From Azolla caroliniana (Eukaryota; Plantae; Polypodiophyta), in NCBI GenBank assembly GCA_043228905.1, contig JBHGNT010000013.1, positions 16,740,001 to 16,804,000 on the forward strand: DNA of 64,000 bases, read 5' to 3'. A program made the position numbers and the translations under genes. This document shows positions 292 through 34,000 of the stretch, piece by piece. The notes beneath the pieces were generated by a model. It was given only the letters and a program-made list of their open reading frames with translations, was not told the DNA's origin and searched no databases. Each line of letters opens with the position of its first letter. Position 1 is the first letter of the stretch.

Positions 292-333
292 TTACAAGTC
301 GGTTATCTCTGGCAATTGCTGTATTTGGCACGT

Positions 334-958
334 TGTCGCGGAAATCCGCGAGTTTGTGTCAAAAGGGCGAGACCACGGAGGTCTTGGACGAGGGAGAAAG
401 GGATGCCAGGAAACCGACTCCGGACACGACCCGGAGACAAGCGAACACGAGAGAGAGAGAGAGAGAGAAAGAGAGAGAATATGCGTGCGACACTAACTCT
501 TATGCACAGGAAACAAAGGAGGGGAGCTATGCTCCCGATACCGCCAAATACACCAATATGCACAAACAAATATATATATATATATATTACAAGGGGAAAG
601 ATACAACCCCGGCTTCGAGCCGGGCTACGCTTAGAAGAAGAAGTAGTTAACCCGAACAAAGCTTCTCGAGAAGGACAAGAAGAAGAAGACTACCAAGAAG
701 TTACTAGCCCTAGAAAAACTCTTGAGGAAATAACCCTAGAGCAAAATGGTATACCCTTACGACTCAAAATGGGCAACCCTTACACAAGAGACCCCTCCCT
801 TCCTTTTATAGCCCAAGGAGGGAGGAACATTATAATGTGGGATAAATACTCCCCCTTATTCTATACACCGTTTCCTACTATACAGGTACACATGTTGCAC
901 ACCACCGACTTGCACATTCCACCCCGGTTTCACACTATAGCCGGAAATCTTCACGACA
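334..958 (-). mobile_element. Gypsy solo LTR inserted antisense just upstream of the host element's PPT
   Basis: Termini TGTCGCG...CACGACA; 4-bp TSD ACGT (330-333 and 959-962). Removing it restores the 3' UTR seen at 21443-21485 (reverse complement). Confidence 0.85.
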
Positions 959-993
959 ACGTACCGGTGGACGTGCAGTTTGGTGGGGTTGGA

Positions 994-1620
994 TGTCGTG
1001 AAGAAAACCGTCCCTAGGAGGAATCAGGGAATTATGCGCTTGAATTGGCCCCTACGAGTGGACATGCTATTTTATAACTTGTACATACTTAGGAGCAAGT
1101 CGGTTGATGTGAAGATACTAGGTAGTACGCATTTATTGTTTAGGAAATCTTAGCGTATCTCTGTTCGAAGTGACAGAGAATAAATACGATGTAACCAGGG
1201 TATAACGGTCTGTCCCCGAGGGGCCTATAAAGAGGAAAGGGAGAAGGCTGAGAGGACATCGCGTTTTTGGGCAAGGACAAGGGGTTGTTGGACTGGGAAC
1301 CGAGCTCTCTCCTGCTCTTTCTATTATCATTCTCTGCAGGGTTGCAATTGCTGTAATCGTCACTGTTATTGAAATTGAATCTCTTGTTTTTGTCTATCCG
1401 TGTTTCTGGGAGTCTCCTCTTTCATTTCTCTCGAGTGTGCTTCTTGATTAAGTTGGTATACGCATTGGTGGTTCATTCAACCGGCAAGTGATGTCGGTTG
1501 CAGACAGGTCTATCAGGCCTTACACTTGCATGCTTCTTACTCCCTCGTCTCCCTTGCTCCTCGGTTCAGGGCCCCCATGGTCCCGCCTTATTTCACACGC
1601 GAAAGCGAAACAACACGACA
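994..1620 (+). mobile_element. 3' LTR of the Gypsy element at the window start
   Basis: TGTCGTG...CACGACA inverted termini; preceded by PPT; TATA-like CTATAAA near 1225; ends resemble the LTRs at 20793 and 32682. Confidence 0.8.
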
Positions 1621-1639
1621 ACGGAGATTGCCGCAACAA

Positions 1640-2170
1640 CCTTGGTAAATTCAAACCAATCAAACCACATACATATGCAGAAGAAAGGAACTCCATGACA
1701 CTGATGGATAAGGGAAACAGAGTTATTCCTGGTTCAAAATCGTGTAGAGGTAGAGCTATGGGCAATGGTGTCAGCAAGTTTTCTAGATGGACCGACGCAA
1801 CACTAGTGTATGTCTGAAGAAAACACTCTCGAATTTGCATCTTGAACAAAGTTCAAAAGAGAGTTGCGGCAATATTTTATCCTTGAAAATGAGCATTTAT
1901 GCCTTATGGATGAGTGGAAGGCAGCGAAGCAAGGAGAAGGCCAACTTACTATCTATACTGAGAAATACCATCAATTAGTATTACAACTACCCCATCTACA
2001 TCCAATCACCAAGCCTCATGGGTTTGTGTTGGGCCTAAGACCACGTATTCGGATGGAGGTGGAGAAGATGAACCCACAATCATGTGAAGAAGCCATGCTA
2101 GTAGCAGAATGAATAATTTAGTAACATCGAAACAAATACACGTCTGACATATGGCAATCAACCAACTACC
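1640..2170 (+). pseudogene. Degenerate Ty3/Gypsy gag remnant
   Basis: Fragments such as KPHTY, LMDEWK..KQG and FVLGLRPRIRMEV resemble retrotransposon gag; frameshifted. Confidence 0.45.
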
Positions 2171-2199
2171 TTCAACAATAGAAGTTGGATGACAACAAC

Positions 2200-3184: not shown

Positions 3185-3215
3185 TCCTATCTATATATTA
3201 CAAGTCGTCTTTCTC

Positions 3216-3631: not shown

Positions 3632-3699
3632 CATATTTACAGATATGTCTTCTCTTCCGGTTCTCACCGGGTCCTCTTTATTCATCACCGGATCCCATC

Positions 3700-4490: not shown

Positions 4491-4632
4491 GTTAACACTA
4501 TAGGAAGGATCAATAAGAAGATTAATATTAGAGGAAGGGAGGATAAGAAGGAAAATTCGGTTCAAACCGTTAGGAGTTGTACTAGAGATTGAGAGGATTA
4601 GTACAAGAGTTACAATAAAAGAGGGAGACAAG

Positions 4633-11677: not shown

Positions 11678-12383
11678 GGGATGGGCATAGGCAGTAAAAC
11701 ACTCAAAGAGGGATATATCCGCCTCGTCTCCTTTTACCTTTAAAAAAATACGTAAGAGTGTCGACCAAGTCAAGACCATTTCCATTTGCTTGACCAAGAG
11801 GTCTTCAATCCCCCACCACCTTGTGTTAGCACCACAAATGCTGTCACCAACTCATCTTGTTCATAGATAGTACACATAAATCAATTATTGGAGGTGTGCA
11901 AGTCGCATCCAATTTACAATCTATTCGTAGTGGAATCTTGTTGCCTTCACCAACATTATCCCTACATTCAACACCTTCCCTTCAGATATTGGTTTCGGAT
12001 TGGACTCATATTGGTCTTATATAATGTTCACCCAACTTAGATAAGGTTTAAGAAATTGAACTTAAGATTAGCAATTGGCGCGGTTCGGTTCGGTTTCAAG
12101 GCAAAGAAACCGAACTGAACCGAAACCGAACCCGTTTATTTAAAACAAAAACCAAATCAAACCGTTTATGAACTCTCAGTATTGAAACCAAACCATTTAA
12201 GAAATAGTTGGAACCAAACCATTTAAAACCAAACCGTTTAGGGAAAAGTTGAAACCAAAACAAACCATCTAATAAAAAATTTAAACCTAACCACTTAAAT
12301 TAAACTAACTAAACATCTAAATAAATAAAAATATGTAGAAACGAAGGTGCGGAAGTGTTAGATAACCGGCTTAGCCGAATAGC

Positions 12384-12444
<61 letters not shown>

Positions 12445-12471
12445 ACACATAGAAGGTACGCAGGAGAGACA

Positions 12472-14637: not shown

Positions 14638-16647
14638 AAAATCTATTATCAACAACTCTGTAAAATTCTCTGTGCATACAACGTGCTCAACAACACTTTT
14701 TATACAAGTCCTAAGAGGATTGACAAAAGTACTGTGTACTTCAATGCTCACACGAGCGTCTGACAGTAACTACAAGACATTAACTACCTAGTAGTCTAGG
14801 CTGCTACTAGGCTTCCAGTTACTGCTTGATCCGGCTAACCAGCTCCCCAACTCACCGGCTCACCGATCTGGCTCAAGCTTATTCCGTCGATCCGGATCCG
14901 GTTGAGCTTGCCACTCAACACTCCCCCTCAAGATCAACTTGAGGTTGGATCATAGTGTCAGTCTCCATGGCAATCAGTCCTTCCACCCGGCTCCTTCTGG
15001 CGTCACTCTGCCTCGCTCGCTCTCCTCGTCCAGTTCAGTCCCATTTGCCACGACCCTTTCTGATTCTACGCACCTCGACCTCCTCGGTCGGCTTGTCTGC
15101 TCAACAGGCCTAATTCAGCACCCTTACTACTGTGACTTCGGCGCTTGCCGATTCGCCGATTCCTTCGTGTTGGCGTCGACTTTCGTTGCCTTCTCGTATC
15201 CGGTTCTTCCGAATCCGTCTGTTGAACTAAATCGGCTGTCTCCGATTCGCTCCAGATCTTGTCCGAATCGGTCGCTCCCGATTCGTCTTCCGGTTCCAGG
15301 CCCTTCACCACATTGGACCATGTCCGGGTCTTGGCCTTCTTCTTCCGGTCGGCTCTATCCTTCTTGACTCTACCGCCACCGCCTCTTGCTCCGACTTGTT
15401 TCCGATGTGTCAACTTCCTTTGTCGACTCAGCTCCTTTCTTCTTCTTGACTCTCCCTTTGTCGGTTCTTCCCTCACCGGCACAATCAGTTGTTTCTTTGC
15501 CTTTGCCCATTCCGGTGTCTTTGCCCGTTCTCCCCCTCAAGTGTGGCACGTCGAGATGCTGAACACCAAGGATTTCGATGAAGTGCTGCAACTTGTCCGA
15601 TCCGAGCGGTTTGGTGAAGATGTCGGCAACTTGCTGATCCGTATGAACATACCGAAATTCGACTTCACCGCTCAGGACACGCTCACGCACGAAGTGGTAG
15701 TGCACTTCTATGTGCTTTGTGCGAGCATTGAATACGGGGTTCTTGGCGAGCTGCATGATGCTTATGTTGTCGCAATAGATCAGGATCGGGGTCAGCACCT
15801 TGATCCGTAGATCTTGCAGCAGTCACCGAAGCCAAATGGCTTCACATGTGGCAATGGTAGTGCCCCGGTATTCAGCCTCAATGCTCGAAAGGGCCACTGT
15901 TGGCTGCTTTTTGCTGCTCCACACAACAGTCGTGCTACCAAGGGAAAACATATAGCCGGAGGTGGATCGGCGATCTGATGCATCAATGGCCCAATTGGCA
16001 TCGGTGTAGCCAACTAGCTCTTCGGTTATACCATGCCAGTATAACAGTCCCTGGTCCTTCATGGCGCTCACATATCGAAAAATTCGATGTGCGCATAGAA
16101 GGTGCTCCACAGTCGGCTTCTGCATATATTGGTTGATCATGCCGACCGGATAACTAATGTCGGGTCGGGTGATTGTCAAATATATAAGGCTTCCGACGAT
16201 TTGTTGGAACCGCTTCTCATCCGAGGACGGTCCGGAGTCGGGACAGAGATTCTAGTTCCGGTCTAGGGTTGTGGAGATCGGTCGGCATTCCATCATCTCG
16301 AACTTGTACAACATATTCAACACATAGTGTCTTTGTGAGAGCAATATGTTGTGGGGGGTTCGGATCACCTCGATCCCAAGGAAATAGTGAAGGTCCCCCA
16401 GGTCCTTCATCTCAAATGCGTCCGACAGTTGGGACTTGACTCGGCTTATTTCATCGAGTCCAAGTCCGGTGATGACTAGATCATCAACATACAGCAAGAT
16501 GCAAACCGGACTGTCCAGACCTTGCCGGATGAACAACAAAGAGTCGGACTTGGAGGCCGCAAACCCATCTTACGCAACCAGTGCCTGATCTTCACATTCC
16601 AAGCTCGGGGGGTTTGCTTTAGGCCATAAAGTGACTTCTTCAGCCGT

Positions 16648-17354
16648 TGTTGCGTTGCTACGCGCGTGCGTGGAGAAGGGCGGGACCACGGGGGTCTTGG
16701 ACTAAGGAGTAGAGGAGAAGGAATTGGACACGGAATGGAAGCTTTTCTCAAGAAGAAGAAGAATGAACAAGAGACTAGATCGAACAAGAGGAAGATGGAG
16801 ACAAGATGAACAACAAGATGTATTAAAACGAAATGAACGATTACAAAATGGTGGCCACATAGGCCGCACCAAACGACTACTCGAAACCCTAACCGACGAA
16901 GATGAAGATAAAGATAAAGAATCCCTAACCCTAACCCTAACGCTCGACCTATGTGGTATACCTCGCACACTCAAAATAGGCAACCCCCACAATGGTGCCT
17001 TTCCTCTCCTTTTATAGCACAAGGAGGGAAGACCGTTTACAAAAGCGAGACTAAAATATCCCCTTTCATTCAAAGGGGATATTTGCCTTGATTTGGGGAG
17101 GGTGAGATTGATGGCCCCTTAACTCCCACCTCCTCACAAACAACTAGGTACCTATGTACCGCATAGTACCTCTCTCTCTCTCTCTCGCGTGGATGTGCGC
17201 ACAAGACCACATCGCCTTTATACCTTAGGGATCTTATGGGGCATTTCTAGCACCATACCCTTTACCCCTATTATTATTACGTGTGCAACGTTGCACATCG
17301 CTCTTTGGCTCTCGTTGCTCGGGTTTCCCCTCGTGGACGAAAATCTTCACGACA
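16648..17354 (-). mobile_element. Gypsy solo LTR interrupting the Copia RT
   Basis: TGTTGCG...CACGACA; 4-bp TSD CCGT/CAGT; RT (VC.LKKSLYGLKQ) is split exactly here compared with 37830-37870. Confidence 0.85.
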
Positions 17355-20300
17355 CAGTCATACCACCAACTTGTTCATCTCCGACTGGAAACCGAGGGGT
17401 TGGGTCATAAAGACCTCTTCTTCAAGATCGCCTTGAAGAAATGCATTATTCACGTCCATCTAGTGTAGATGTGACCCCCTTGCCGCAACAACCGCCAGCA
17501 CCACACGAACCATTGTCATCTTCGATACCGGAGCAAAGGTCTCGTCGTAGTCGATCCGTGGGTCTACACGTATCCCTTCGCTACTAACCGGGCCTTGTAC
17601 CGGTTAACTAAACCGTTGGCATTGTACTTTACCTTGTACACCCACTTACATCCGATCAGTTTATAGTGTCGGGGAGGGTCAACTAGGTCCCATGTGTCAT
17701 TGGCAACAAGTGCCCGCATTTCCTCCTCCATAGCGGCACGCCAATTTGCGTCCTTTCCTGCTTCTGTGTAGCTCTCCGGCTCACACACTTCCACCACCTT
17801 GGTCATGTACGCATAGTGATGCGCCATGTACTCATTGTACCCATAACGCTACATAGGGTTCTTCTGGCGAGAAGACCAACGTAACTTGGTATTACTTGGT
17901 TTGGGGCCCTTCTTGGCCAGGTCGGACTTCGTTCCCGAAGATCCTCCTTCATCCTTTCCGGAGTCAGATTCGCTCTGATCCGACTCAACGTTGCCAGTTT
18001 CGTATTCCGGCATTTTCTTCTTCCCCTTCTCTTTGCGCGTGAACCGTCTCCTCGGTTCCTTGCACGGGGAGAGCATGGAAGAGTCTCCACTACTCACTGG
18101 TTCATCTTCCGACTGGTCTGTCTGACCCAGTCACTCGTTCGGCCCGCTCAACCGAAATGATTCCGAACTCACATCTAGAGTCTCGAACCCTTCGTCTTCT
18201 AACTGGACTGGTTCAGGCTCACTAGCCTCATCCTCCAGTATCAGGTCGGGGTCGGAAGTCGAAGCCGGTAAGGCATACCATGATGCCATCTCATCAAACT
18301 CAACATCTCGGCTTACTCGAACCTACTTTGTACGGGGGTTATAACACTTATACCCCTTCTGCTCATGTGAGTAATCCACCAGGATGCATTTCTCCGACTT
18401 TGCATCCAACTTCCTCCGCTTCTCATCCGGCACATGCACATATGCTCATGCGCGGACACCTTGTCACCGATCCGGTTTTGGATATAGACGGTCATCCGGA
18501 CCGCCTCAGCCCAGTAGAATTTGGGCATGCTCTTCTCCTCCAGCATCACCCTTGCCGCGTCGATAATCGACTGATTCTTCCTCTCAGCCACACCGTTTTG
18601 CTCCGGTGTGTATCTGCAGCTGAACTCTCTTTGAATTCCTTTTTGCTACAGATAATTGTTGAATTGGCCAGAAAAATATTCTTTTCCGCCATCCGACCGC
18701 AAGCACTTGATCTTCCTTTCCGTTTCCCGTTCAACCAGGCTTTGCAGGTTCCGGAAACACTCGAAGACTTCGCTCTTCTACTCAATGAGGTAGATCCATG
18801 TGTGCCGGCTGTAGTTGTCAATGAAGGAGACGAAATATTGACTCCCGCCAAGACTAACGTTCTGTGACGGTCCCCATACATCCGAATGAATAAGGTCGAG
18901 CTTGTTACGGCTATGGTTTTGTTCGGTGGAGAATTGAAGCCAGTGTTGCTTCTCGAGTTAGCAAACTTCACATATTTGCAACTCCCGGCCACTGAACTTC
19001 GGCAAACCAAAAACAACTTGTTTCGTTTGCAGGTCTTGAAGCTCCGATAATTGACGTGGCCAATCCGCTTATGCTAGAGATCAATATCCGATTCAATTTT
19101 CTGTCCTTTGGCGATCAAAGCGGTGCAGACATTATTGGTGTCAAGGATGAACATCCTCCCATCTCTACGCCTTACCGGATCCGGATCAGTCCGAATCGGC
19201 GCGCTTCTTCAACCACTCGCTTTCTTTGTGGCCCTTTTTACCACAGTACCAGCATTTCGTGTCGGCCGTTGCTTATTGGCCTCCGGCGCCGTCTTGACTC
19301 CCCCTACTTGTGGAGGGTCCGGAACTGTTGTCGGCATTTCTCTATGCCTTCAGTCCTACTCTTTCCGGCCGCTACCATTGCGAGCTGACCCGCCTCATCC
19401 ACCATGCCCACGGGGCCAAATCCGCCTCCGTGTATAGCATTTGGCTGTCGGTCAGTGCACTTGTTGACGCATCGGCGTGGTTCTCCTCTACAAGGAGCAT
19501 ACCATCATTCGGAACGCTCTAAACTTAGACGCTAGGCCCCCAAGAAAAATCTGCACCATCTCATCTTCCTCTACAGTGACGTTGATAGAGGCAAGTGAGT
19601 CACAAATCTCTTTGATTCGGGCCGTGTAATCGGCTACCGACATGTCCTTCTGTCGGACATTGCTCAACTCCTATCGGAGTTGCAGCTTCCGGGCCGTAGT
19701 GCTTGCCGTGAAAACCTTCTTTAGGTTTCCCCAAGCTTCTGTTGGCGTCTTGGCATCTCGGACATGGCTCAGCAGCTGGTCTCCGGCACTAGACGCAAAG
19801 CAGTACATCACTCTGCTTGCTGCTTGTTCCCACACTAGGAAGTCCTTGTGTGCCGCATCAGGTGTTGTGTCGTTAGCTCCGTCGACATAGCTCCAGTAAC
19901 CATGCCCAAGTAGGTACTGGTGCATCTTGTATGACCAAGATGCATAGTTGGATCTGTCTATCTTCTCCACTAGGAGCGAGCTAGCCATTTCTCTGTCCAT
20001 CACTTCTCTTTCTGTTCTTACCGGGTCTTATGGTTTGTCTTCAGATGCTGATATCGGCTGCAGAGGTTCTCAACCCTCGCGCTCTGATACCATGTAGAAA
20101 CGAAGGTGCAGAAGCATTAGACAACTGGCTTAGCCGGATAGCAAGAGAGAGAGAGAGAGATTAACACACAAAAGGTACACATGAGAGACAGAGAAAGAGC
20201 AGAACAACTTAAATCTATTATCAACAACTCTGTAAAATTCTCTGTGCATACAACATGCTCAACAACACTATTTATACAAGTCCTAAGAGGACTGACAAAA

Positions 20301-21489
20301 GTACAATGTACTTCAATGCTCACACGAGCGTCTGACACTAACTATGAGACATTAACTACCTAGTAGTCTCGGCTGCTACTAGGCTTCCGGTTACTGCTTG
20401 ATCCGGCTAATTGGCTCCCCAACTCACCGGCTCACTTGCTCATTGGCTCGCTTGCTCACCGGCTCACCGATCCAGCTCACCCTTCCGGATGCCGATCCAG
20501 CTCAGGCTTATTCAGCCGATCCGGATCCGGTTGAGCTTGCCACTCAACAATATACATTAAATTAAATAAGCATTAAAGTTAAATTTATTAAATCAATAAA
20601 AAACCATTAATTAAACAATTAAATCAATAAAGTATTAAGGTTAAACAAAAGTTAGCCAAAAACCTATAAACCTATAAACCCAAGTTTTAGAACCAAACCA
20701 AACCAAAACCGAACTGTTTATCGAAAATCCAAACCAAACCAAACCATTAAAAATTTTTGGAACCAATAAACCATTAAACAATGGTTTAACGGTGTCGCGT
20801 TTTTTACGCGCGTGCGTGGAGAAACGAGGCAGGACCACCGGGGTCTTGAACCTAAGAGCAGGTGATAGGAGGGGAAAGAGAAAGAGAGAGACAAACGGTT
20901 ACGTATGAGCAAAGAAACACAGGGACACGGCCCGTCAACGCAGAAGACACGAATGAACACAGAGACAGAGAGACACGAATGTTTGTATATTAACAAGTGA
21001 CACAAAAACAACAGAGCACACGAGTGGTTACAACCGAACAGGCCGGCGAACAGATGTCGATGCCTACTCGTTTGCGCACGGAAAGGGGATAGGATGGAGG
21101 TGCTGCCAGAAGCACACGGGCGTTCCTCGAAGCAGCGTGAGCCTCCCGAAAACCTGCAGAGAAGAGCAATAGAGAACAAGCAAAGGAGAAGCGTTCGGTT
21201 ACGGTCCGACAGCACTTCGTCCTCCTCAATGCGCGATCCCTTCTCCTTGCGTCTCCCTCTCCTTTATAGTGTCAGGAAGGGAGCCGTCTCCCTCATTTAC
21301 TTCATACCTACCGAATCTAACTACCCAGGATATACCTATGTACCTAGTTCCCTATAATATACATTAAGGGCGCGCACGCGTGAAGAGCTGGTTCACGCGC
21401 GCTATGCACCGATTGCGCTAAGGGACGGTTTCCTTCACGACATCCGCCCCCACCTAACCGCGCATCCACCGGTACGCGCCAAAATTGGG

Positions 21490-24400
21490 TTCTGGTTCGA
21501 GAAAACTAGTCCAGGTTCCGGTTCTTCGTCCATCGATTCGTCCTCCGTTTCGGACTGTTCGTCGTCGTTGTCCAGGCCTCTTAGATCCGGTTCGCCGTCG
21601 TGGCGCTTTTTGAACGATTTGATCCGCTTCCCTGCCACCGGTATTGCCATCCTCGTACTGTGGAGTTCCGCTAGGTGATACGTCCCGTTGTTGTTGGCAC
21701 TCGTTACCACGTAAGGCCCGAACCACCGCTTCGCAAACTTCCGTGTTGCTCGGTGCTGGGTGTCAAGGCTACTATCGTAGACTAGCACCTAGTCGCCTTC
21801 CTCGATTTTCTTTGGTCGGAGCCGGTGCGTTCAGTCGAACCGGCCTTTGTTCTTCATCCTCGCCGTCCGAAGTCTCTCCGCCGCTCGTTCCATGTCCTCT
21901 GGCCTCCGCTCGAGCTGCCGTATACGCGCCGCTAGCAATTCTTCCCGACCCATCTCGTCTCTCCAGTCTATTGTCGCCCAAGAGGAGATCGTCCGTTCCA
22001 TCGGCATGATCGGCTTCTGTCCAAACATGAGCTCTGACGGCATGAACACGGTTACCGAACTGTGCGTTGTCCGGTCCGCCCACAAAGCATAGGGTAACAG
22101 TCGTGGCCAGTTCCCGACCTGGCCTTCGCATGCCCGGACTAGCGCTTTGACGATCAGTCCGTGTCCGCGCTCCACCTTCCCGTTCGCCTCCGGATTGTAC
22201 GTTGTGGTGAGCGTGAGCTTGACCCCTAACCGGTCGAACAGCTCCTCGGCCTCTTCAGCGTCCAACTCCCCGCAGTCAGCCACGATCTTCCCGACGCACC
22301 CGTACTGGCATATCACGTCCTCGATCAGGAACTGACACACGGCCGCAGTCGTTTTGTTCTGCAAGGCTCGACCTTCCACCTAGTTCGTCAGGTCCTCCCG
22401 GGCCAGCACCAGATATCGCATCTGCCCTACACCCATCGGCATCGTCACCAAATCTACCATCCATTTGAAATGGATGGCCGGAGGGTAAGTAGGGTGAAGC
22501 TCGTCCCGAGGTCGGACTATGGAATGCATCTCACAGCTCTCACAAGTTGTCACGAACCGATGCACGTCCCGGTACAGCCCCGACCACCAGTATTTCCCCT
22601 TTAGTTTCTTGAACGTGGCCCACGTCCCATGGTGTCCAGCCCAGGGGCTGTCGTGGTAGGCCTTCAGCAACTCCTCCTGTTCCTCCTTCATCGCCACTAC
22701 TCAGAGCGGGATGTTGTTTGTCTTCTTTGGGTGCTTCCACAAGTAGCTGTCCCGGAGAAAGAATCGGTACGCTTTCTTCCGGATCCGGTTGGCCTCGTCC
22801 CTTGTCCATGACGCGCCTGGCGTCATCGTCCTTAAGAATCCTCCAATCTGCAGCCACTCCCCATCGTACTTGCTCTCGTTAAAATCGTTAAGCGCCGGAG
22901 TGCTCCCCCCCTCGGTTATTACGTAAGCCGCCTCGAAGAAGTCCACGCCGACTTCCTCGTCCTCCGAAACCATGCCGCCCTCGTCGTTGAATCGCGCCCT
23001 CGAAAGCATGTCGGCCATGGCATTGTCTTTCCCGGAAATGTGTCGTATTTCCGGATCCATGGACTTGATGTACGCTATCCACCTAAGCATTGCCAGGTCC
23101 GGGGTTGCGCATCCGGAAACCATGCCGAGAATCGGCAGTCAGTCCGTCTCGATAATCACCTCTGTCCCGATCAGATAGTCTTTATCGGCCTTCACCGCCG
23201 AAACGATACCCCAGAGTTCGCGTTTAACCTGGGCGTATCCTCGTTGTCGCTCACTGAGGACCTTCACACCGAACCGGATTGGGAACCGAATGTCGTCCTC
23301 ATCTTCTTGGTTGACAACCCATCCGATCCCGGTCGGACTTGTATCTACCGTTATGTAGATGGGAGTGCCTTTCTTGTAGACAGCTTTCCAGAGTGCCGGA
23401 GCTGCAGCAAGAGCCTCCTTCATCTTTCGGACCGACTCCGTATGCTCGACTCGCCACTCGAATTTTCGCCCCTTTTTCAGCAACCCGTATAGCGGCTCGG
23501 CAACGTGGGCGTAATGCGGGATCCATATGTGGTAGAACGCGCATGCTCCCAAGAACCTTCGTACCTCCGTGACCGAGTTACAGTCGGGCTTCATTGCAAA
23601 GATGGCTTCCACCTTAGCCGGAGACGGTTTCCGGCCATACGGTCCGCATAGATGTCCGACGACCATGATCTCTGATTGCCCGAAGGCCGATTTCTCCCTG
23701 GAGAAGGTGAGCCTCGCGTCCTCTAGCCTCTGCAGCACCCTCTCGCAGTCGTCAATGTGTGTCGCCACGAATCTCCGGCATCCGTCCGGTCCGATCGTTT
23801 CGTCCTTTTCCTCCATCGGACATCCCTTGATCGGGATGTCGTCCAAGAATGGCATGGTAATGTCCGGGATACAATCCCTTAGCACGTTGTTCATCGCATT
23901 CACCATGTGGGCCACCGAGTTCGTCCCTCCTTGTGGCAGGGTACACATCCGCACTAGGCCGAGAGGAGTCGGCATCGTCGTGATGTCTCTGCTCTCTACG
24001 GCTAGTTGGAACTTATCGTACCCCGAGTACAGATCACTGACCGAGTAGATCAACCTTCCGGAAAAGGCCTCCGCGAACTCGTCTATCGTTGGTCCGATTC
24101 CTGCGTTCCGAATGGTCACTCTGTTGACCGGTTGCAGGTCTTGAATGAAGCGCAACGTCCCGTTCTTCTTCGGTACGGTAAACCACCAGTTCGAGTACGG
24201 GGCACTCGACGGTTCGAGGATGCCCATATCGATTTTCTGCCTCAACAGCTCCATCAGCTCCGGGATGTGAGCTCTTGGTACCGGAATTGGTTTGAGATTC
24301 CACGGCACATACGGTACCGTGAATATCACCATCGGCTTCACGATTGTCGGGTCTACGCACCTGATCTATCCCCGTGAGAATGCGAAGGCTTTCCCATGCC

Positions 24401-24990
24401 TTTCGAGCATTCTCCGAAACTGGTCTTCTTCTGACGACAGTAGGAAACCGCCCCCACCGATTTTTAGCTCCCGTAGCGTTTTGTCGGTGATGGTGTGTCC
24501 TATGCAGGCCGGATCTCGTAAACTAGGGTCCGACGCGACCCCCTTGATTCGCAACTCGCTACCCTCCGGTAAGGGTGCCGTGACTGGCCTTACCTTCCGG
24601 TCCACAGTCTTGTACTTCGTGTTAACCCGGGCCGTCCGATCCGACTTGAGCCCCTGACTGAAGTCCGCAATGACTTCGTACATCTCTTCTGAACAAACCG
24701 GTATCGTCCGGTCCTCTTTAAGGCCTTCTCCGACCACCTCTCGCAGTATTCCCAAGGTATCGTCGAAGGAGACCGCCTCCACGGCTCCGTGATTTCCTCG
24801 CTGGGACCGAGAACTCCGCACGCCTGAAGTCGCTCTTCCGCCCTTGTCTTTTCTCGGCCAACGACGCCGACTATTGCACACCCTCCGTTGTCGGAGAAAC
24901 AAAACTTCCTACTTATGGTACAAGGTTTCTTCGGTTTTCCCGGAGTGTCCAGACTGTCGCGGCCCCACGCCTTGACAGCCCTCTCTAAAA
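21490..24990 (-). pseudogene. Gypsy pol (RT, RNase H, integrase) with several in-frame stops
   Basis: LPQGGTNS, PFLDDIPIKG (RT); TVDTSPTGIG, KRELWG (RNase H); HDSPWAGHH..CESC zinc finger, YNPEANGKVER, WFGPY (integrase). Confidence 0.92.
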
Positions 24991-25466
24991 ATCCTCTCGG
25001 TTCTCGCCACCGAGGGACTTGCGGTTTCGCTCGTGGTTCGGTCGCACCGTCAGGAACTGGACCGAATGACGCCCGTCCTGACTCTTGACCCTTGCGTAAG
25101 CTGACCCGTTGTCCAGCACCTTGGTCTCCATCCGCGCTGCCGTAATGTACGGTTCTCCCAGTATGACCGGGTGCGAGGACGTCTCCTGCACAAAGAAGTG
25201 TTGATCTATCTCGACGTCGCCGATCTTGACTCGCACGTTTGGGCAGGCCCCGTGTAGTTCCTCGATGGCGCGCGTCGCCGCCCGTATCTTCCACCCATGC
25301 TTGGTGTTGATCGGCCATTTCCCCTTCTTGTAGAAGTCCATGGACATCAGGTTTATTTCCGAACTGTGGTCCACCAATGCCACCACCGGTTCCTGAACAT
25401 CTCTGATCTTCACCGGGGTTTCTGTGGTCGCTCGGGCCCAATGTGGCCTCGAGTAGTGGCTCTCTG

Positions 25467-25553
25467 TGTTGTAAACAAAGGCCGTCAATGCGGAAGATCA
25501 AGAAGCATTCGATTCTTGTTGAGTACCTGCGTATGACAGTTTCTGAGATAGTG

Positions 25554-25591
<38 letters not shown>

Positions 25592-28500
25592 CACAAAAGA
25601 CTTTCTATTCCATAGAAACAATAATACAACCAACCTTACAAAAAGGTTACAAGGTCACTATATATAGTGACCGACTTAGGGCAACTACCATTTATGCTAA
25701 TTACACAAATGGCCCAAACTTGAGCTATACAAAGGGGATAGTGTGAATACGTCCATTATACACTTGTATTCGACACTCCCCCGTAATGGGCGTATACATG
25801 GGTTATCTAAGATTACAGGTATAAACCTAGGTTCTCGGACATATCAGTTTTGTTCGAGTCGGCAGGGTCCGAAGGCAGAAGACCAGACTGGTCGGGTCGG
25901 AAGAGTTGAAGCCGATCATTAAGGAACTGATGTCGGTTGTCCGAAACCATCCTGCGCTGTGTCCGGCTCTAACCGGACTGGTTTGTCGTTACGCCCATCT
26001 GATGCCGAAGGGACCGAAAGCGGTCTGCCGAAAGACACTTGGTCATTCCATCTGCGACATTGTCGGTTGTGGATATTTTCTCTAGACCGATTTTCCCTGA
26101 AATGACGCAGTCCCGAACGAAGTGATATCGAACGTCGATATGTTTGGAGGCGTTGTGGTGAACCGGATTTCTCGACAAGGCAACAGCACCTTGACTGTCG
26201 CTATAGACAACTAGAGTCGAGTCGTGGTCGACTTGCCGAAACGTGTGCGCCAGCCGGCCGAGCCACAAAGCTTCTTTTGCAGCGTCGGACGCAGCTACAT
26301 ATTCTGCTTCGGTCGTTGAGGTCGCTGTGCACTCCTGAAGTTTCGACTTCCACGAAATTGCTCCATTGCCGAATTTGAAGCAGTATCCGGTTGTTGATTT
26401 CCGACTGTCTATACAGCCGGCGAAGTCCGAGTCGGTGTAACCGACTACGCCTGAGGTTGAGTTCGGACCGAAAAGAATGCCGTGATCTTTTGTGCCAGCC
26501 AGATATTTGAACACATGCTTGACTGCGTTCCAATGCGATCGGCCAAGATTGTGCATAAATCTGCTAACGACTCCTACGGCATGAGAAATATCAGGCCGTG
26601 TCGCGATCATCAGGTACATAAGGGAGCCGACTGCCGGTGCATACGGTACCGACTTCATATCTTCCCCCTCCGGACCGGATGTCGGGCAGTCTCGCTGAGA
26701 GAGCCGAAGATTCATGGGGAGCGGGGTTGAAGCAGATTTGGCTGATTGCATGTTGAAGCGGTCCAAGACACGTCCAATATAGTCGGTCTGAGACAAAAAA
26801 AGATGTCGTTTATCGCGATGCCGACTAATCTTCATGCCAAGGATGTGTCGTGCCGGACCGAGGTCCTTCATGGCAAACTTCAACCGCAGTTGCCGAATGA
26901 GATCGGCAAGTTCGCCCGCGTGGCGTCCAGAAATTAGCATGTCGTCCACGTAAATGATGAGGAAGATGGGTGATCCATCTTGAGCTGTGTTGGTAAAAAG
27001 ACAATGGTCCTCATCACTTTTTGAGAAGCCGATCGATTGGATGAAGTCGTCGAACTTCTTGTACCATTGTCGCGGTGCCTGTTTGAGGCCGTATAGACTC
27101 TTCCTGAGTCGGCAGACTAGATGTTCTTGGCCAGTTGCCACGAAGCCTTTTGGCTGCTCCATATAAATTTCCTCTTCAAGATCACCATGGAGGAAGGTTG
27201 TTTTGACATCTAGCTGAATCAGCTCCAAGTTGTCGGCTGCCACTACGCCGAGTAGAAAACGAAGGGTTGTCATTTTCACCACTGGTGAAAAAATCTCGTC
27301 GAAGTCGACGCCATATTCTTGTCGGAAGCCCTTCGCAACTAATCTGGCCTTGTACTTTGGGGTGGTCGAATCAGACGTCTCTTTTAGTCGATAAACCCAC
27401 TTGCAAGGAAGAGCACGTCGATTCTTAGGTAGTTCGACCAGATCCCAAGTCTTGTTTGCCCGAATGGAGTGCATTTCCGACTCCATCGCCAGATGCCAGG
27501 TGGCTGAATCGACAGATGTCGATGCTTCTTCGTAAGACGTCGGTTCGCCGGCGTCGGTGAAGAAAATTCCAGGAGAATACCTCTTCGGAGGTTGCGACAG
27601 TCTCTCGGATCGTCGAGGTATGATTGGACTGGTCGCATCGGGTATCGAGGTCGGATGGTCCGAAAGCGAATCATTCGGCTGTGCCGAGTCAGAGTTGTCC
27701 GAGTCGGTAGTGTAAGGTTCAGCTACCCGTGAAGCTGACCGTGTGTTAAGAGCGGGGCCTTCTTGAAGGGTCGGCACATCGGAAAATGTTACCCTTCGGA
27801 CTTCAATCGGTTTTTCGACTGATGGATTCATAGCCGACTCGTTGAACACAACGTCCGAACTTCGAACGATTTGTCTGCGTTCGGGGTCCCAGAGTCGGTA
27901 TCCCATTTCGCCGTCTGATCCATATCCAAGGAAAATGCATTTCCTGGACCGAGGTGCAAGTTTTCGGTGATCATCTTTCGGAATAAGGGCGTACGCCTCG
28001 CATCCGAAGATCCTCAGCTTGTCGTAATTCGGCTTACTGCCGATCCATAGTTCCTGAGGAATTTGAAGTCCTAGAGGTCTACTTGGCGACATATTGATTA
28101 TGTGTACTGCCGTGAGTAGAGCCTCTGCCCAGAAGCCATCCGACAGTCCGGAGTGTTGGAGCATGGAAACTATCCGTTCTTGGATTGTCCGATTCATTCG
28201 TTCTGCAATCCCGTTTTGCTCCGAACTGTGTGGTGCCGTAAATTCACGTCGGATGCCGCATTGTCGGCAGAATTTGACGAATTCTTCGGATTTGAACTCT
28301 CCCCCATTGTCAGTCCGAAAGCATTTCAGTTTTCGGTCAGTTTGATTTTCTACCATAGCGAGCCAATCGGAGAAGATCGAGAAGACACGATCTTTGGTGC
28401 GAATTGGATAAGCCCACACCTTTCGAGTCGAATCGTCAATAAAACTGACGAAGTAAGAGGCACTGCCAAGAGACTGATGCGGCATTGGGCCACAGACGTC

Positions 28501-31002
28501 CGAGTGGACTAGATCGAGAGGTCTCGTTTCTCTTGGTGCTGATGTCGGGTGTGATGCGGCTGCTTGTTTGCCATACTGGCAATGTTCGCAGAATTGATGG
28601 TCGGAGAAGGAGAGTTTAGGGATGTATCCGGCTCTAGATAGGTGCGTAATGCCGGCCTTGCTGAGGTGTCCTAATCTTCTGTGCCATAGTGATGACACAG
28701 GAATATCCACCAAAAACAGGTTACCCTCCCTGAGCGTAACATGTAACGGATACAGTGAGTGTATCTTGGGTCCTCTAGCAAGCAGGAGGTTCCCCCTGTG
28801 GAGTGTCCACCCTCCCGAAGAGAAACCGGCACGAATGCCGTCTTCATCTAGTTGTCCGACTGAGATCAATGGCCTTGAGAGCTCGGGTACATGTCGGACA
28901 TTGTGAAGTACAAGTGTAGAGCCACCTGCAAGGTTGAGCTCTACTGTGCCGATTCCAATGATGTCACAGTGTTGTGAGTTGCCGACTCGAACTGAGTCGG
29001 AGTGACGGATCGTATATTGCCGAAATTGGGATCGATGAGGAGTCACGTGAAATGACGCGCCCGAATCTAAGAGCCATGTGCTCGATTCTTCAGTCGTGAG
29101 CAGAACTTCTGATCCGACTGGATTTTCGATTGATAGTATATTCGGGTCGTTTGGTAGCACATCAGCTGAGAAGCTGACGTAATTGATCTCCTCATGCCGG
29201 CCACTCTTCTTGTCTGATTTCTGAGACTTGTCGTTCTTGTTCTTGAGTGCGCGGCAGTCGGCTTTGATGTGTCCGGGTTTCTTGCAATAGTTGCAGATTC
29301 GATTATCCCGTGACTGGCTCCGTCTTCGCTGATTGTTCGGCTGCCGTGAGGAATCTCTTCCTCGTATGTTCGATCGGTCTGTCGAACCTTGTACTACGTA
29401 GGCGTCGTCTGTTGAGTCTTTGGCGAAAGACTTTCTCCGAGCTGCTTCGGTCAGGATTGCGCTCGTGACTTCGGAGTATTTAACAGTCGTGGTTGACGCG
29501 TTGCACACAGTTGTGACGAAAGTTTCCCATGATGAGGGAAGGCTGCTCATGAGTATCATTGCTCTGAGTTCATCCTCGATTGCCGTCCCCTGAGATGAGA
29601 TTTGGGAGCTTATGCTTTCGTACTCATTTAGATGTGCTTGAACCGAATCAGATTCTTTCATCCGCAAGTTGTAGAGGCGCCGAATAAGAAACATCTTCGT
29701 TGCAGCGACCTTCTTTTCGTAGGTGTCCGACAGTGTTTTCCACAGTTCGAATGCTGTCGTACACGATTGCACCGTAAAGTATACCGATTCCGATAGGTGC
29801 ATCCGAATCGTGGCGCGGACGATTCTGTCCAGCTTCTGCCACTCAATTGGTTTGTATCCTTCTGGAGGTTCTTCATTTTCGATGGGATCGATTTGCCCCT
29901 TGACTATGAGATAGTCCTGCATTTGCTCCTTCCAGAAGTTGAAGTTCGATCCATCGAACTTTCGTAGACTCATTTCTGACGAGCCGGATGTTGATGCCAT
30001 CAAATTTGGTTTCGGTTGACGAAGCTCGGTTCGGAGTTGACTACGAACCTTGTTGGAGTGCAGCCGGTTGGCTCACCCGATATCGTTCTAGTTGGATTTG
30101 GACCCGAGTCGGTTCGGCTTCGGATATATGTGTTGTTGAACTTGCTCGAATTGACTCCGGTAACTTGAGGGACAGAACCGACTGGTCTTCCCGAATGTTG
30201 CCAAGTCGGAGTGAGCCCGGTTCGCTTCCGAATATATATGCCAAATACCGATTATTGAAACCGATTGTCTGGACCGATTCTGCTTCGGGTGACTGCAGCG
30301 ACGAGAGAGACAGATCCAACTGATCCTCCCGAATGTCGATCAGCCGGATGAAGCACGAATTGGGGTTGTTGTCTTGAGACCGATCTGCACCGAGTGGTTA
30401 CAATGAGCGGCGAGCAGCGTTTAATGACCTCTTCGGATGCCGTTTAACCGAGTGGAGCACGATCGTGTCAATGTTGCACAAGGGGATTTCACCTCGAGCG
30501 GTTACGATCACAAGGAACAGAGTACAACCGGCTGGCTTACTCCAAGCGAAGATGATCTAACGCGATGAGATGCAAGCCTCGTTTTTCTTCTTCTTCTCTC
30601 TTCTTCGAATGACGCAGGAAACCGAATGCTGTGCAGGCTGAGACGACGGCCGACAGCGGATTGAAGGACCGAATACTGTGCAGGCTCTGATACCAGATGT
30701 TGTAAACAAAGGCCGTCAATGCGGAAGATCAAGAAGCATTCGATTCTTGTTGAGTACCTGCGTATGACAGTTTCTGAGATAGTGCACAGAGAGAGAGAGA
30801 GAGAGAGAGGGAGGGAGGCACAAAAGACTTTCTATTCCATAGAAACAATAATACAACCAACCTTACAAAAAGGTTACAAGGTCACTATATATAGTGACCG
30901 ACTTAGGGCAACTACCATTTATGCTAATTACACAAATGGCCCAAACTTGAGCTATACAAAGGGGATAGTGTGAATACGTCCATTATACACTTGTATTCGA
31001 CA
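25467..31002 (-). mobile_element. Intact young Ty1/Copia element (Tork/Tnt1-like); LTRs 25467-25775 and 30698-31002
   Basis: LTRs identical outside an AG microsatellite; PBS-Met 30684-30695; PPT from 25776; TSD CTCTG/CTCCG. Confidence 0.96.
25969..30000 (-). CDS. Copia Gag-Pol polyprotein, uninterrupted
   Basis: CNYCKKPGHIKADC; WLLDSGAS protease; HSDVCGP, RTDNGGEF, QNGIAER integrase; YVDD RT; YTDSD..EAEY..DSQ..ADGMTK RNase H. Confidence 0.95.
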   Translation of the reverse strand: MASTSGSSEMSLRKFDGSNFNFWKEQMQDYLIVKGQIDPIENEEPPEGYKPIEWQKLDRIVRATIRMHLSESVYFTVQSCTTAFELWKTLSDTYEKKVAATKMFLIRRLYNLRMKESDSVQAHLNEYESISSQISSQGTAIEDELRAMILMSSLPSSWETFVTTVCNASTTTVKYSEVTSAILTEAARRKSFAKDSTDDAYVVQGSTDRSNIRGRDSSRQPNNQRRRSQSRDNRICNYCKKPGHIKADCRALKNKNDKSQKSDKKSGRHEEINYVSFSADVLPNDPNILSIENPVGSEVLLTTEESSTWLLDSGASFHVTPHRSQFRQYTIRHSDSVRVGNSQHCDIIGIGTVELNLAGGSTLVLHNVRHVPELSRPLISVGQLDEDGIRAGFSSGGWTLHRGNLLLARGPKIHSLYPLHVTLREGNLFLVDIPVSSLWHRRLGHLSKAGITHLSRAGYIPKLSFSDHQFCEHCQYGKQAAASHPTSAPRETRPLDLVHSDVCGPMPHQSLGSASYFVSFIDDSTRKVWAYPIRTKDRVFSIFSDWLAMVENQTDRKLKCFRTDNGGEFKSEEFVKFCRQCGIRREFTAPHSSEQNGIAERMNRTIQERIVSMLQHSGLSDGFWAEALLTAVHIINMSPSRPLGLQIPQELWIGSKPNYDKLRIFGCEAYALIPKDDHRKLAPRSRKCIFLGYGSDGEMGYRLWDPERRQIVRSSDVVFNESAMNPSVEKPIEVRRVTFSDVPTLQEGPALNTRSASRVAEPYTTDSDNSDSAQPNDSLSDHPTSIPDATSPIIPRRSERLSQPPKRYSPGIFFTDAGEPTSYEEASTSVDSATWHLAMESEMHSIRANKTWDLVELPKNRRALPCKWVYRLKETSDSTTPKYKARLVAKGFRQEYGVDFDEIFSPVVKMTTLRFLLGVVAADNLELIQLDVKTTFLHGDLEEEIYMEQPKGFVATGQEHLVCRLRKSLYGLKQAPRQWYKKFDDFIQSIGFSKSDEDHCLFTNTAQDGSPIFLIIYVDDMLISGRHAGELADLIRQLRLKFAMKDLGPARHILGMKISRHRDKRHLFLSQTDYIGRVLDRFNMQSAKSASTPLPMNLRLSQRDCPTSGPEGEDMKSVPYAPAVGSLMYLMIATRPDISHAVGVVSRFMHNLGRSHWNAVKHVFKYLAGTKDHGILFGPNSTSGVVGYTDSDFAGCIDSRKSTTGYCFKFGNGAISWKSKLQECTATSTTEAEYVAASDAAKEALWLGRLAHTFRQVDHDSTLVVYSDSQGAVALSRNPVHHNASKHIDVRYHFVRDCVISGKIGLEKISTTDNVADGMTKCLSADRFRSLRHQMGVTTNQSG

Positions 31003-34000
31003 CTCCGCCCACTCATCTTCCAGCGCCATGTCCTCCATGTGCGTCGTCCGCACCTCCACCGGCCTTTCCGGTTCTGTCTCCGTCGACAGCCTCTTCCTCT
31101 TCACCAAGTCTACGATGGAGTCGTGGAACTCCTTCTTGGCGATTCCGAGCACCTCCCGCAATGACAGTTCCACCTTGTTGTCGAGGATTCGTTCTTCCAG
31201 GACCTTTTGTAGGTCCGTGGTCCTTTCGATCTCCATGCCCAACCGGTATCCGCCCTTCTTGTGGTTATCCCGGGCACTGGTCTCACCGGCCTCGTTCTGT
31301 TTCGGCCTGAATCGGGTTTCGTATCTCTGTGAGGATCCGGCCCCTTAGGTTTTACCTACCCGTTTGTCTTCAACCAGAGCCTCGTAGTTCTGGCAAGCTA
31401 CTTCGACGAAACCCGTCTTTTCTTCGACCCGGTCACTCCACCCGGTTACCTCCTGGACCCGCTTCTCCGCGCGGTTCGCCTCGTCTTTCTTCAGTCGGGC
31501 ACCGGCAAGGCCTTCCACCACCGTCGGCCAGAACCCGGCTTTGCTCTCCTTCCAGGCCTCGCTGCCACCGACCCGAATACCGGTCGATGCCGAGTAGTGG
31601 ACGGTCTCTGCGTGCTGGGTCGCTGCCTCTTCCATCAGCCTTTTCATTCCCCCTCGCCCGTCGTTTCGATTCAGGGCCCTCCGGGTATCGCTGGCGTGCA
31701 CCCGACCTTCCCACAGGTACACTACCCGGCTTCTCAAAGCCTCCGCAAAGTCCCCGCAGTCTTTCCGAATGTGGCCGACCTCGTCGCACCACATGCACCT
31801 ATTTCCTGCCGGAGGCCGTCGGTCACGAGCCTGTTCGCCACTTTCCCTTCGAGCCTGGGCGATCTGGAGATCCTTTACCGCCCGTGTCAACTCCTCCAGA
31901 GCTGCCCCCCCAGACGAGCCTCTGACCACGCCGGTCAGAGCCAAACCGGTTTCGAGCCACTCCCGGGTCTCTTCCCGTCGCGCCTACGGTATCGGTTTGA
32001 GCTTCCTTGCTGCGATAGGACCCGCCTCGGTCACCCATGTATCAGCCCACTCCCACCGTTTGTCAAAACGGCCGCGGCCCAGTCGGCCGTCAGCCCATCT
32101 TCGGTTTCCAGTAAGGAGCCCACTTGCTCCCGATCCCGTGCGTCAACGGATTTGACAAACAGTAGGACACGTCTTGTGTCCAGAACGGTCCGATCGAGCG
32201 CCGAAAGGCGCGCAAAGCGATCCTCAAACTCCCGGAGGAGTGCCGACGCATTTCTTCCTTTGTTGGGGGACTCCACCCACTACATGAAGCCCCGCTTCGA
32301 AAGTCGAAGCGAGTCATCCAGCTCGTATTTCTCCAGGAGCAGTCCTTCGAACTCCTCCCAGGTCCGGCTCTCCGCCCGGACCTCGAGCACCTCCACATGG
32401 ATGCCCGGCATCACCACTCGAGGGAATCCGGCAAGACGCCTCTCTTCCGGAATATCCCTCATCAACATCTCTGCCCGGTAGGACGCCAAATAACTCGTGG
32501 CATCCTTTCCACTGAACCGGTCGATCATACCGACGATCGCTTCAATAGCCCTATCAAGGGCGCCGGTGCCCTCGCGCGCACTCACTATCCGGTCCACGGC
32601 CGAAGCCATGGCCTCTACAAGATCCGACCCCCTCATCTTCTGCTCCTCTGCCGCCTTGTTTCACATCGGGTTCACCAAATATGTCGCGTGGAGAAACGAG
32701 GCAGGACAGAGCAGGTGATAGGAGGGGAAAGAGAAACGAGGCGGGACCACCGGGGTCTTGAACTGAAGAGCAGGTGATAGGAGGGGAAAGAGAAAGAGAG
32801 AGACGACCGGTTACGTATGAGCAAAGAAACACAGGGACACGGCCCATCAACGCAAAAGACACGAATGGACACAGAGACAGAGAGACACGAATGTTTGTAT
32901 ATTAACAAGTGACACAAAAACAACAGAGCACGCGAGTGGTTACAACCGAACAGGCCAGCGAACAGATGTTGATGCCTACTCGTCTGCGCACGGAAAGGGG
33001 ATAGGATGGAGGTGCTGCCGGAAGCACACGGGCGTTCCTCGAAGCAGCGCGAGCCTCCCGAAAACCTGCAAAGAAGAGCAATAGAGAACAAGCAGAGGAG
33101 AAGCGTTCGGTTACGGTCCGACAGCACTTCGTCCTCCTCAATGCGCGATCCCTTCTCCCTGCATCTCCCTCTCCTTTATAGCGTCAGGAAGGGAGCCGTC
33201 TCCCTCATTTACTTCCTACCTACCGAATCTAACTACCCAAGATATACCTATGTACCTAATTCCCTATTATATACATTAAGGGCACGCACGCGTGAAGAGC
33301 CGGTCACACGCGCTATGCACCGATTGCGCTAAGGGACGGTTTTCTTCACGACAACGGTTCGGTTTGGTTCGGTTTGAGTTGAAACCATGCCCATTGCTAC
33401 TTAAGATAATCAAACAATACACATTTTTAGTTTCACATTCTCATCGATCAGAATTGTGTTGGGCAAAGTCCTCTAAGGCATAATGTAAGTGTGCTTTCTA
33501 CGGAGGAGCTTCATTCGAGAAGAGTCAAAAGTAGTTCTAACCAAAATTTTGAACAAATTCAAAATCAAGTAGGTCTAAAACTTTTGAACAAACTATTTAA
33601 GCCCCTATTTGATTGATTGCAATGAAAATCAAAGTTTTTATAGAGCAAAAACTAAACAAATAAAGAGGACGAAACATTTTTCCGTTCCTTTCCGCTTCTG
33701 CTAGCCTCACCTCTCTCTCCTCTTCACTTATGGCAAGTATTTTGATCCCTCTCTCTCGTATTTTATTGTTAGACTACTAGCACAATATCTTCTTGGGTTT
33801 GAGACCCAATTTTCATTCCACTATGGAATGCAAGGGTTGAACGCATTACCTTCTAGTCTCAATTGGACAACCTTATTAATTGAGCTACATTATACCATAT
33901 GTATATTATAGCTAACTACAAAACCATATTCTTCGCCGAATGGGGAAATTGTACACATTGATACATCATGTTAGAGCCCACCCTATTGTTTGCCATCCGA

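What the first reader, a model, noticed from the sequence alone, without database searches (positions are those of the whole stretch)
330..33357. Gypsy family with 4-bp, CpG-centred target sites
Seen: four independent insertions of related TGT(C/T)G...CACGACA LTRs have flanks ACGT/ACGT (334-958), ACGG (after 1620; the other end is outside the window), CCGT/CAGT (16648-17354) and ACGG/ACGG (20793-33353). Most plant LTR elements make 5-bp TSDs with weak preference, and one of these sites is a CpG within an AT-rich MITE. Inference: the integrase prefers nCGn, possibly methyl-CpG, which would steer it into other transposons. All sites resolvable here are inside TEs.
Basis: partly seen in the sequence, partly recalled or inferred. 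Interest (0 to 1): 0.7.

Follow-up and report, generated by a model that had tools for sequence, protein, structure and literature searches.

The report
Phygy-type retrotransposons inserting at CpG sites
A large group of jumping genes in this plant (likely a fern) almost always lands on the DNA letters CG and duplicates four bases, a habit already published for the moss 'Phygy' group to which they likely belong; whether they need the CG to be methylated is untested.

Summary
All four junctions are as stated. The one end outside the window lies 32 kb upstream and reads ACAG against ACGG, a decayed CpG. Of 6,559 LTR starts not preceded by the purine tract, 78% follow CGN and 13% follow CA/TG/TA; background CG is 2.7% per base. 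In a young subfamily, 40 of 43 elements have exact 4-bp duplications, all NCGN. The elements are non-chromovirus Ty3/gypsy with a tRNA-Trp primer site and no detected chromodomain or extra RNase H. That fits Phygy, whose 4-bp NCGN preference was published in 2019 (PMC6317226). No tree against Phygy references could be made. Additions here: likely fern host, strong avoidance of T at position 1, an invariant DRGEL-type integrase loop, and young insertions in repeats more often than motif-matched CpGs (32 of 40 versus 50%). Selection or chromatin may explain that excess. Methyl-CpG sensing is neither shown nor excluded. This scan earlier noted NCGN targeting in a likely fungal genome.

The parts
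330..333 (.). left TSD copy ACGT (site 1, inside the 3' end of a same-lineage element)
   Evidence: flanks match other copies
334..958 (-). solo LTR, 625 bp
959..962 (.). right TSD copy ACGT
1..285 (+). integrase C-terminal part of element 2 (its 5' LTR is at window coordinate -32089)
   Evidence: tblastn
981..993 (+). purine-rich tract (PPT) of element 2
   Evidence: same motif precedes 3,457 LTR starts
994..1620 (+). 3' LTR of element 2, 92.9% identical to its 5' LTR
1621..1624 (.). right TSD copy ACGG (left copy ACAG, upstream of the window); site lies in a decayed gag-like frame
16644..16647 (.). left TSD copy CCGT (site 3, inside a copia element)
16648..17354 (-). solo LTR, 707 bp
17355..17358 (.). 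right TSD copy CAGT (one mismatch to CCGT)
20550..20788 (.). left part of the hAT-like MITE that received element 4
   Evidence: at least 40 dispersed copies at 82-91%; paralogous empty sites
20789..20792 (.). TSD copy ACGG (site 4)
20793..21442 (-). 3' LTR of element 4, 94.6% identical to its 5' LTR
21443..21456 (-). PPT of element 4
21522..25000 (-). pol (RT, RNase H, integrase), broken by stops and frameshifts, 87% identical to an intact copy
24988..32669 (-). gag-protease ORF, interrupted by a nested copia
25467..31002 (-). nested copia element with 5-bp TSD CTCTG/CTCCG (control)
32660..32677 (-). primer-binding site complementary to the 3' 18 nt of tRNA-Trp (one mismatch in this copy)
32682..33353 (-). 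5' LTR of element 4
33354..33357 (.). TSD copy ACGG
33358..33399 (.). right end of the MITE with its terminal inverted repeat
34157..39997 (+). unrelated copia with 5-bp TSD CTTTG (control)

Best explanation
These are Ty3/gypsy retrotransposons, likely of the Phygy lineage, that leave 4-bp target duplications centred on CG, likely because their integrase reads the CG bases directly while bending the target, with methylation likely not required. Shown: 4-bp NCGN duplications, T avoided at position 1 and A at position 4, no clear preference outside the 4 bp in 40 sites, tRNA-Trp PBS, gag-protease ORF overlapping a pol ORF, intact DDE triad, and an excess of young insertions in repeats. Inferred: the 4-bp stagger forces a sharp bend that favours a pyrimidine-purine step (as in foamy virus), and base contacts narrow this to CG; the invariant, one-residue-shorter D-R-G-E-L-type loop after the second catalytic Asp is the candidate contact. 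Nesting in transposons would follow because repeats hold the CpG-dense DNA and because genic insertions are lost.
For: LTR starts TGTCGTGAAGAWW: 10,016. PPT-preceded: 3,457. CGN-preceded: 5,134. YRN-preceded: 6,008. So 78.3% CG, 13.3% CA/TG/TA and 8.4% other among 6,559, against 2.74% CG per base in 600 kb sampled, about 29-fold. Young subfamily picked by an LTR-end 13-mer, not by flank: 40 of 43 elements have an exact 4-bp TSD, all NCGN, none 5-bp. CG is only 11.6% of YR steps, so flexibility alone cannot give 40 of 40. TCGN is 143 of 5,134 (2.8%) against 33% in background, the T/A avoidance reported for retroviruses with 4-bp TSDs (PMC4422553 section 6). Other LTR elements read here have 5-bp TSDs: CTTTG and CACGA, CTCTG/CTCCG. 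No chromodomain or methyl-CpG-binding family in 18 of 18 aligned Pol proteins. Glu-Leu at D+3/D+4 in 18 of 18, one residue shorter than PFV SDQGAAF. Flanks of young sites are CpG-rich, o/e 0.99, like repeat CpGs generally (0.98). CG-centred targets are also reported for Ginger1 in Hydra (CCGG, CCGT) and a Drosophila errantivirus subgroup (CGCG); that Drosophila has almost no CpG methylation is recalled, not from a call.
Against: Young sites fall in repeats more often than motif-matched CpGs (32 of 40 vs 599 of 1,200; P about 0.001 by cluster bootstrap), so sequence alone does not explain placement. Of the other 8, four matched repeats in a larger library, two in genome searches and two looked like transposon ORFs by eye; none was an evident host gene. 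That deeper check was not run on the null set. Selection alone would have to forbid 22-38% of matched CpGs, which is high. A review reports that C methylation created strong target sites for avian retroviral integrase in vitro (passage in PMC11054761). The role of the DRGEL loop rests on a sequence alignment only. Phygy membership has no tree behind it.
Confidence: 0.6

Rival explanations
1. The integrase needs or strongly prefers symmetrically methylated CpG. This would steer insertions into silenced transposons and would protect the element's own unmethylated, CpG-rich cDNA from autointegration.
For: Strict CG centre. Repeat excess beyond motif-matched CpGs. No evident host-gene hit among 40 young sites. 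TSD CpGs decay to CA/TG with age (3 of 16 parsed elements; 13% genome-wide), so these sites are likely methylated at least after insertion. Precedent for a methylation effect in avian retroviral integration (review passage).
Against: No methylation data were examined. CpG decay dates from after insertion. No methyl-binding domain was found. Flanks are not CpG-depleted, although young methylated repeats need not be. A reader of methyl plus G might also accept TG/CA half-sites (inference), and 0 of 40 young TSDs have them.
Confidence: 0.22
2. CG is read as plain sequence, but a separate tether (integrase C-terminal domain, Gag or a host protein) brings the complex to heterochromatin, which gives the repeat excess.
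For: Repeat excess. 16 of 40 young sites lie in the element's own lineage, against 16% in the null. Phygy-labelled domains were among those enriched at centromeres of a liverwort (passage in PMC12885004).
Against: No chromodomain. LTR matches are scattered along the listed contigs rather than gathered at one place. Selection could give much of the excess.
Confidence: 0.15
3. Artefact: the CG belongs to the element's ends, the boundaries are misplaced, or the pattern searches selected for it.
For: LTR ends themselves contain CG (TGTCG...CGACA), and one genome count used a CG-containing pattern.
Against: Positions 1 and 4 vary between insertions and match on both sides. 5' LTRs end at the same ACA before the PBS. 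Paralogous empty MITE copies carry one ACGG. The young set was chosen without regard to flank.
Confidence: 0.02

Closest known systems
Phygy clade of non-chromovirus Ty3/gypsy, Physcomitrium patens (Neumann et al. 2019, PMC6317226; passages, section 9 and supplementary table 5 read; supplements 1 and 3 too large to read)
   Same: 4-bp NCGN TSD, tRNA-Trp PBS, no chromodomain, no aRH, polyprotein filling nearly the whole interior
   Different: Host is likely a fern, not a moss. Full elements are 7.0-7.3 kb, just below the 7.66-9.97 kb range given for Phygy. About 10,000 LTR starts. No direct sequence comparison was possible.
TatI clade, Selaginella (same paper)
   Same: 4-bp TSD, tRNA-Trp PBS
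   Different: TatI has an aRH between protease and RT and no reported sequence preference; no aRH is detected here
Ginger1 DNA transposons (Bao et al. 2010, PMC2836005; abstract and passages read)
   Same: Gypsy-like integrase with H2C2 and GPY/F motif, TGT termini, 4-bp CCGG or CCGT/ACGG TSD
   Different: DNA transposons of animals with TIRs and no RT; narrower target, whereas ACGT is commonest here
Drosophila errantivirus subgroups gypsy, ZAM, Idefix (review PMC5408687; passages read)
   Same: Sequence-specific palindromic 4-base targets including CGCG
   Different: Insect elements with AGT...AnT ends; GCGC and CGCG are not the targets here
Prototype foamy virus and MLV integrases (Serrao et al. 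2015, PMC4422553; abstract and sections 6 and 14 read)
   Same: 4-bp stagger, central YR step, T avoided at the first and A at the last TSD position; PFV integrase is the best PDB match to the integrase region (E 2e-21)
   Different: Their YR preference is weak (63% above random), while here it is near-absolute for CG; a small neutral residue sits at the Ala188 position there
Fungal non-chromovirus gypsy elements with DUF4100 Gag-protease (possibly Ylt1/SN_1006-like; PMC2864245 passages read)
   Same: DUF4100 plus protease look-alikes of Gag in Basidiomycota clusters, score 0.96
   Different: A lead only: no tree was made, no TSD data for them were seen in that paper, and the link to Ylt1 is recalled

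Membership tests
Ty3/gypsy LTR retrotransposon | LTRs TG...CA, PBS, PPT, order PR-RT-RH-INT | tested here: met
   protease assigned from its motif at the end of ORF1 and the Atlas look-alikes, not from a Pfam hit
Phygy | 4-bp TSD | tested here: met
   40 of 43 young elements exact, none 5-bp
Phygy | NCGN insertion preference | tested here: met
   40 of 40 exact young TSDs; 5,134 of 6,559 genome-wide
Phygy | tRNA-Trp PBS | tested here: met
   18-nt PBS matches tRNA-Trp(CCA) genes, 6 of 6 loci called by ARAGORN
Phygy | no chromodomain, no aRH | tested here: met
   no Chromo or RNase_H hit in 18 Pol proteins; one marginal RVT_3 hit (E 0.006) in 1 of 18
Phygy | length 7.66-9.97 kb with coding sequence filling the interior | tested here: inconclusive
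   interior filled, but 6.8-7.3 kb; the paper treats size as a weak classifier
Phygy | clusters with Physcomitrium Phygy in an RT-RH-INT tree (the primary definition) | not testable with these tools
   reference FASTA too large to read; no Physcomitrium-named hit among the 240 rows listed
TatI | aRH between protease and RT | tested here: not met
Chromovirus (Tcn1, Galadriel) | C-terminal chromodomain | tested here: not met
Selgy | tRNA-Ala PBS, 4.4-6.7 kb | tested here: not met
   PBS is tRNA-Trp
Troyka | CG...CG termini, 3-bp TSD | tested here: not met
   termini TG...CA, TSD 4 bp

The most novel reading that the evidence does not exclude
A gypsy integrase lineage shared by mosses, liverworts, ferns and perhaps fungi reads methylated CpG directly through its DRGEL target loop, without a chromodomain. 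It would use the host's silencing mark as its landing signal, which sends copies into other transposons and keeps its own unmethylated cDNA from self-integration.
Probability: 0.2. Interest if true: 0.75.

Novelty: new member of a known kind. Interest (0 to 1): 0.27.

Why it matters
The preference itself is published, though in the one search with that term only the 2019 paper showed an NCGN count among the 15 papers listed, and I saw no mechanism for it in the passages read. This genome gives thousands of sites, a burst of near-identical young copies and a candidate integrase loop, so the question 'plain CG or methyl-CG' becomes directly testable. A methylation-reading integrase would be a new route to heterochromatin targeting. 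A plain CG reader would still be one of the most sequence-strict plant LTR integrases.

Tried and rejected
Directional target: the young set had more ACGC than GCGT, but genome-wide it is 429 vs 608, so that bias is rejected. The opposite skew (P 3e-8) is unexplained and may come from self-nesting. Longer consensus: no clear preference outside the 4 bp in 40 sites, apart from a slight C at -1 and G at +5. CWG depletion as a methylation proxy did not differ from random CpGs (P 0.51). Bisulfite runs: none was listed. The structure prediction never finished, so no fold search was run. Kitamura 1992 was not held and is cited second-hand. Named Phygy reference: not obtained from protein searches, cluster look-ups or supplements. 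Troyka, TatI, Selgy and chromovirus labels were tested and rejected. Three young elements were left out of the TSD count: one not parsed (L211), one with a PPT on its left, a likely tandem array (L221), one with unmatched flanks beside an inverted neighbour (L195/L196).

Full report
Observation. The four junctions are as reported: ACGT/ACGT around a solo LTR at 334-958, ACGG after an LTR at 994-1620, CCGT/CAGT around a solo LTR at 16648-17354, and ACGG/ACGG around the element at 20793-33353. Three are on the minus strand; in sense the LTRs run TGTCGTGAAG...CG(A/C)ACA-like ends. The missing end of the second element lies 32 kb upstream, with ACAG on its left, which is ACGG with a CpG transition; a nested member there has ACGG/ACGG. 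The four LTRs share only termini and short blocks, so they are several subfamilies. All four sites are in transposons; site 2 rests on my reading of a gag-like translation. For the MITE site, 5 of 7 paralogous copies show one uninterrupted ACGG.

Genome-wide test. The LTR start TGTCGTGAAGAWW occurs 10,016 times in the 523-Mb genome, with 16 control matches. 3,457 follow the purine tract and are 3' LTRs. Of the other 6,559, 5,134 (78.3%) follow CGN, 874 (13.3%) follow CA, TG or TA, and 551 (8.4%) something else, which will include mutated tracts. CG is 2.74% per base in 60 sampled 10-kb stretches (40 from contig C1, 20 from other contigs), so the enrichment is about 29-fold. The pattern covers only subfamilies with that exact start. 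A young subfamily was chosen by a 13-mer at the LTR end (246 matches, first 100 listed). Of 43 elements examined, 40 have an exact 4-bp TSD, all NCGN, none 5-bp, with LTR identity of 99.4% or more. Position 1 is A25 C10 G4 T1 and position 4 is T19 C11 G10 A0. Genome-wide TCGN is 143 of 5,134 against 33% expected. Among 16 elements parsed from 20 hand-picked regions, 12 had exact NCGN, 3 had one copy decayed to CA or TG, and 1 was unresolved. Three unrelated LTR elements read in or near the window have 5-bp TSDs.

What the elements are. Full copies are 6.8-7.3 kb with LTRs mostly of 630-810 bp, a Gag-protease ORF of about 710 codons (DUF4100) overlapping a 1,167-codon Pol with RT, RNase H, H2C2 and an integrase with an intact DDE triad. 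The PBS is the complement of the 3' end of the genome's tRNA-Trp. No chromodomain, extra RNase H or methyl-binding family was found in 18 Pol proteins; 1 of 18 had a marginal RVT_3 hit. Named relatives of RT-RH are from Riccia and Adiantum, up to 70% and 73% identical. Gag look-alikes include Basidiomycota clusters, a lead only. In metagenome contigs, 39 of 80 loci show the same PBS core, and the 7 host junctions I could read on one side are all NCGN, down to 59% Pol identity. The named lectin-kinase relatives of a neighbouring host gene with the highest identity (about 44-52%) are mostly ferns, so the host is likely a fern.

Comparison with print. Neumann et al. 2019 state that Phygy elements have an insertion preference for NCGN, the one exception among plant LTR lineages, and list 4 bp (100%), tRNA-Trp PBS (81%), 7.7-10 kb and no extra domain (PMC6317226, passages, section 9 and supplementary table). 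Jedlicka et al. 2019 also report 4-bp TSDs with GC-rich centres and Phygy nested in Tcn1 (PMC6911290, passages and section 6). Every testable Phygy feature is met except length, which is slightly short. The defining tree could not be made because the reference FASTA was unreadable; that supplement and the element table may bear on range and size. CG-centred targets are also known from Ginger1 and Drosophila errantiviruses. Searches listed no paper whose title or abstract start showed a test of methylation dependence for Phygy or a report of it in a fern; only some were opened, and the library lacks most subscription papers.

Mechanism. Retroviruses with a 4-bp stagger favour a central YR step and avoid T at the first and A at the last TSD base (PMC4422553, sections 6 and 14). 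The same avoidance is seen here. But CG is only 11.6% of YR steps, so 40 of 40 needs base-specific readout (inference). The loop after the second catalytic Asp, which carries PFV Ala188, reads D-R/N-G/K-E-L in all 18 aligned proteins and is one residue shorter than in PFV and in two other gypsy integrases sampled from this genome. It is a candidate contact, untested; the fold job did not finish.

Steering into transposons. Against a 600-kb library, 32 of 40 young sites are in repeats, compared with 599 of 1,200 motif-matched CpGs (cluster bootstrap P about 0.001) and 184 of 600 random positions. 16 of 40 are in the element's own lineage, against 197 of 1,200. Of the remaining 8 sites, six matched repeats on a deeper look and two resembled transposon ORFs, but that look was not applied to the null, whose repeat share is therefore also underestimated. 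Flank CpG o/e is 0.99, the same as for repeat CpGs (0.98) and far above non-repeat CpGs (0.51). So CpG preference alone lifts the repeat share from about 31% to 50%, and something else lifts it to 80%. Selection would need to forbid 22-38% of matched CpGs. Methyl-CpG readout or a chromatin tether would also do it. A review notes that methylation created strong targets for avian retroviral integrase in vitro. No methylation data were examined, so the choice is open. I put plain CG readout at 0.6, methyl-CpG at 0.22 and tethering at 0.15.

Verdict. A real and very strict preference, already published for the lineage these elements likely belong to. The additions are the likely fern host, the counts, the T/A avoidance, the candidate loop and the repeat excess. 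An unreviewed note of this scan (e1-10582392) describes NCGN duplications in a likely fungal genome; I did not check its data. Interest 0.27; new member of a known kind.

Noticed in passing
L071-L075 (G000:C1), 4.1-4.8 kb elements: Short elements share termini, PBS and PPT with the lineage and have NCGN flanks (exact TSD in 4 of 5), but tblastn finds only the start of Gag and no RT or integrase inside them: likely non-autonomous partners, some with a long ORF of unknown kind.
   Followed up: partly
window 9443-11851, 45227-47494, 53723-55990, 58081-60468 (- strand): Cluster of related long ORFs; the two scanned are L-type lectin receptor kinases, and the copies are 76-86% alike at DNA level.
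   Followed up: partly
G000:C8:17.80-17.82 Mb, C16:4.99-5.11 Mb, C5:10.11 Mb: Tandem arrays of matches to the tRNA-Trp 3' end, about 1.2 kb apart on C8 (63 matches in all); the 6 loci scanned were tRNA-Trp genes. This is the primer tRNA of the lineage.
   Followed up: no
G000:C13, window coordinates -32089 to 1620: One 7-kb element is stretched to 33.7 kb by nested insertions, including two of its own lineage and a 10-kb LTR element with a 5-bp TSD.
   Followed up: partly
L195-L198 (G000:C2:15.72-15.74 Mb): Two young copies lie back to back with the same left flank in inverted orientation, suggesting a rearrangement or duplication at the site.
   Followed up: no
L221 (G000:C5:2.12-2.13 Mb): A young copy has a PPT on its left, a likely tandem LTR-internal-LTR array.
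   Followed up: no
window 4632-5058 and 6103-6527: A pair of 98.8% identical 429-bp direct repeats about 1 kb apart around a tandem-repeat interior, starting TGTCA and ending TGACA: a possible TRIM-like element; no TSD was evident.
   Followed up: no
window 14635-20549: The copia hosting site 3 has LTR left ends that do not give a matching TSD, and the left half of the MITE is missing beside it, so this stretch was likely rearranged.
   Followed up: partly
genome-wide: GCGT precedes LTR starts more often than its reverse complement ACGC (608 vs 429), an unexplained asymmetry.
   Followed up: partly
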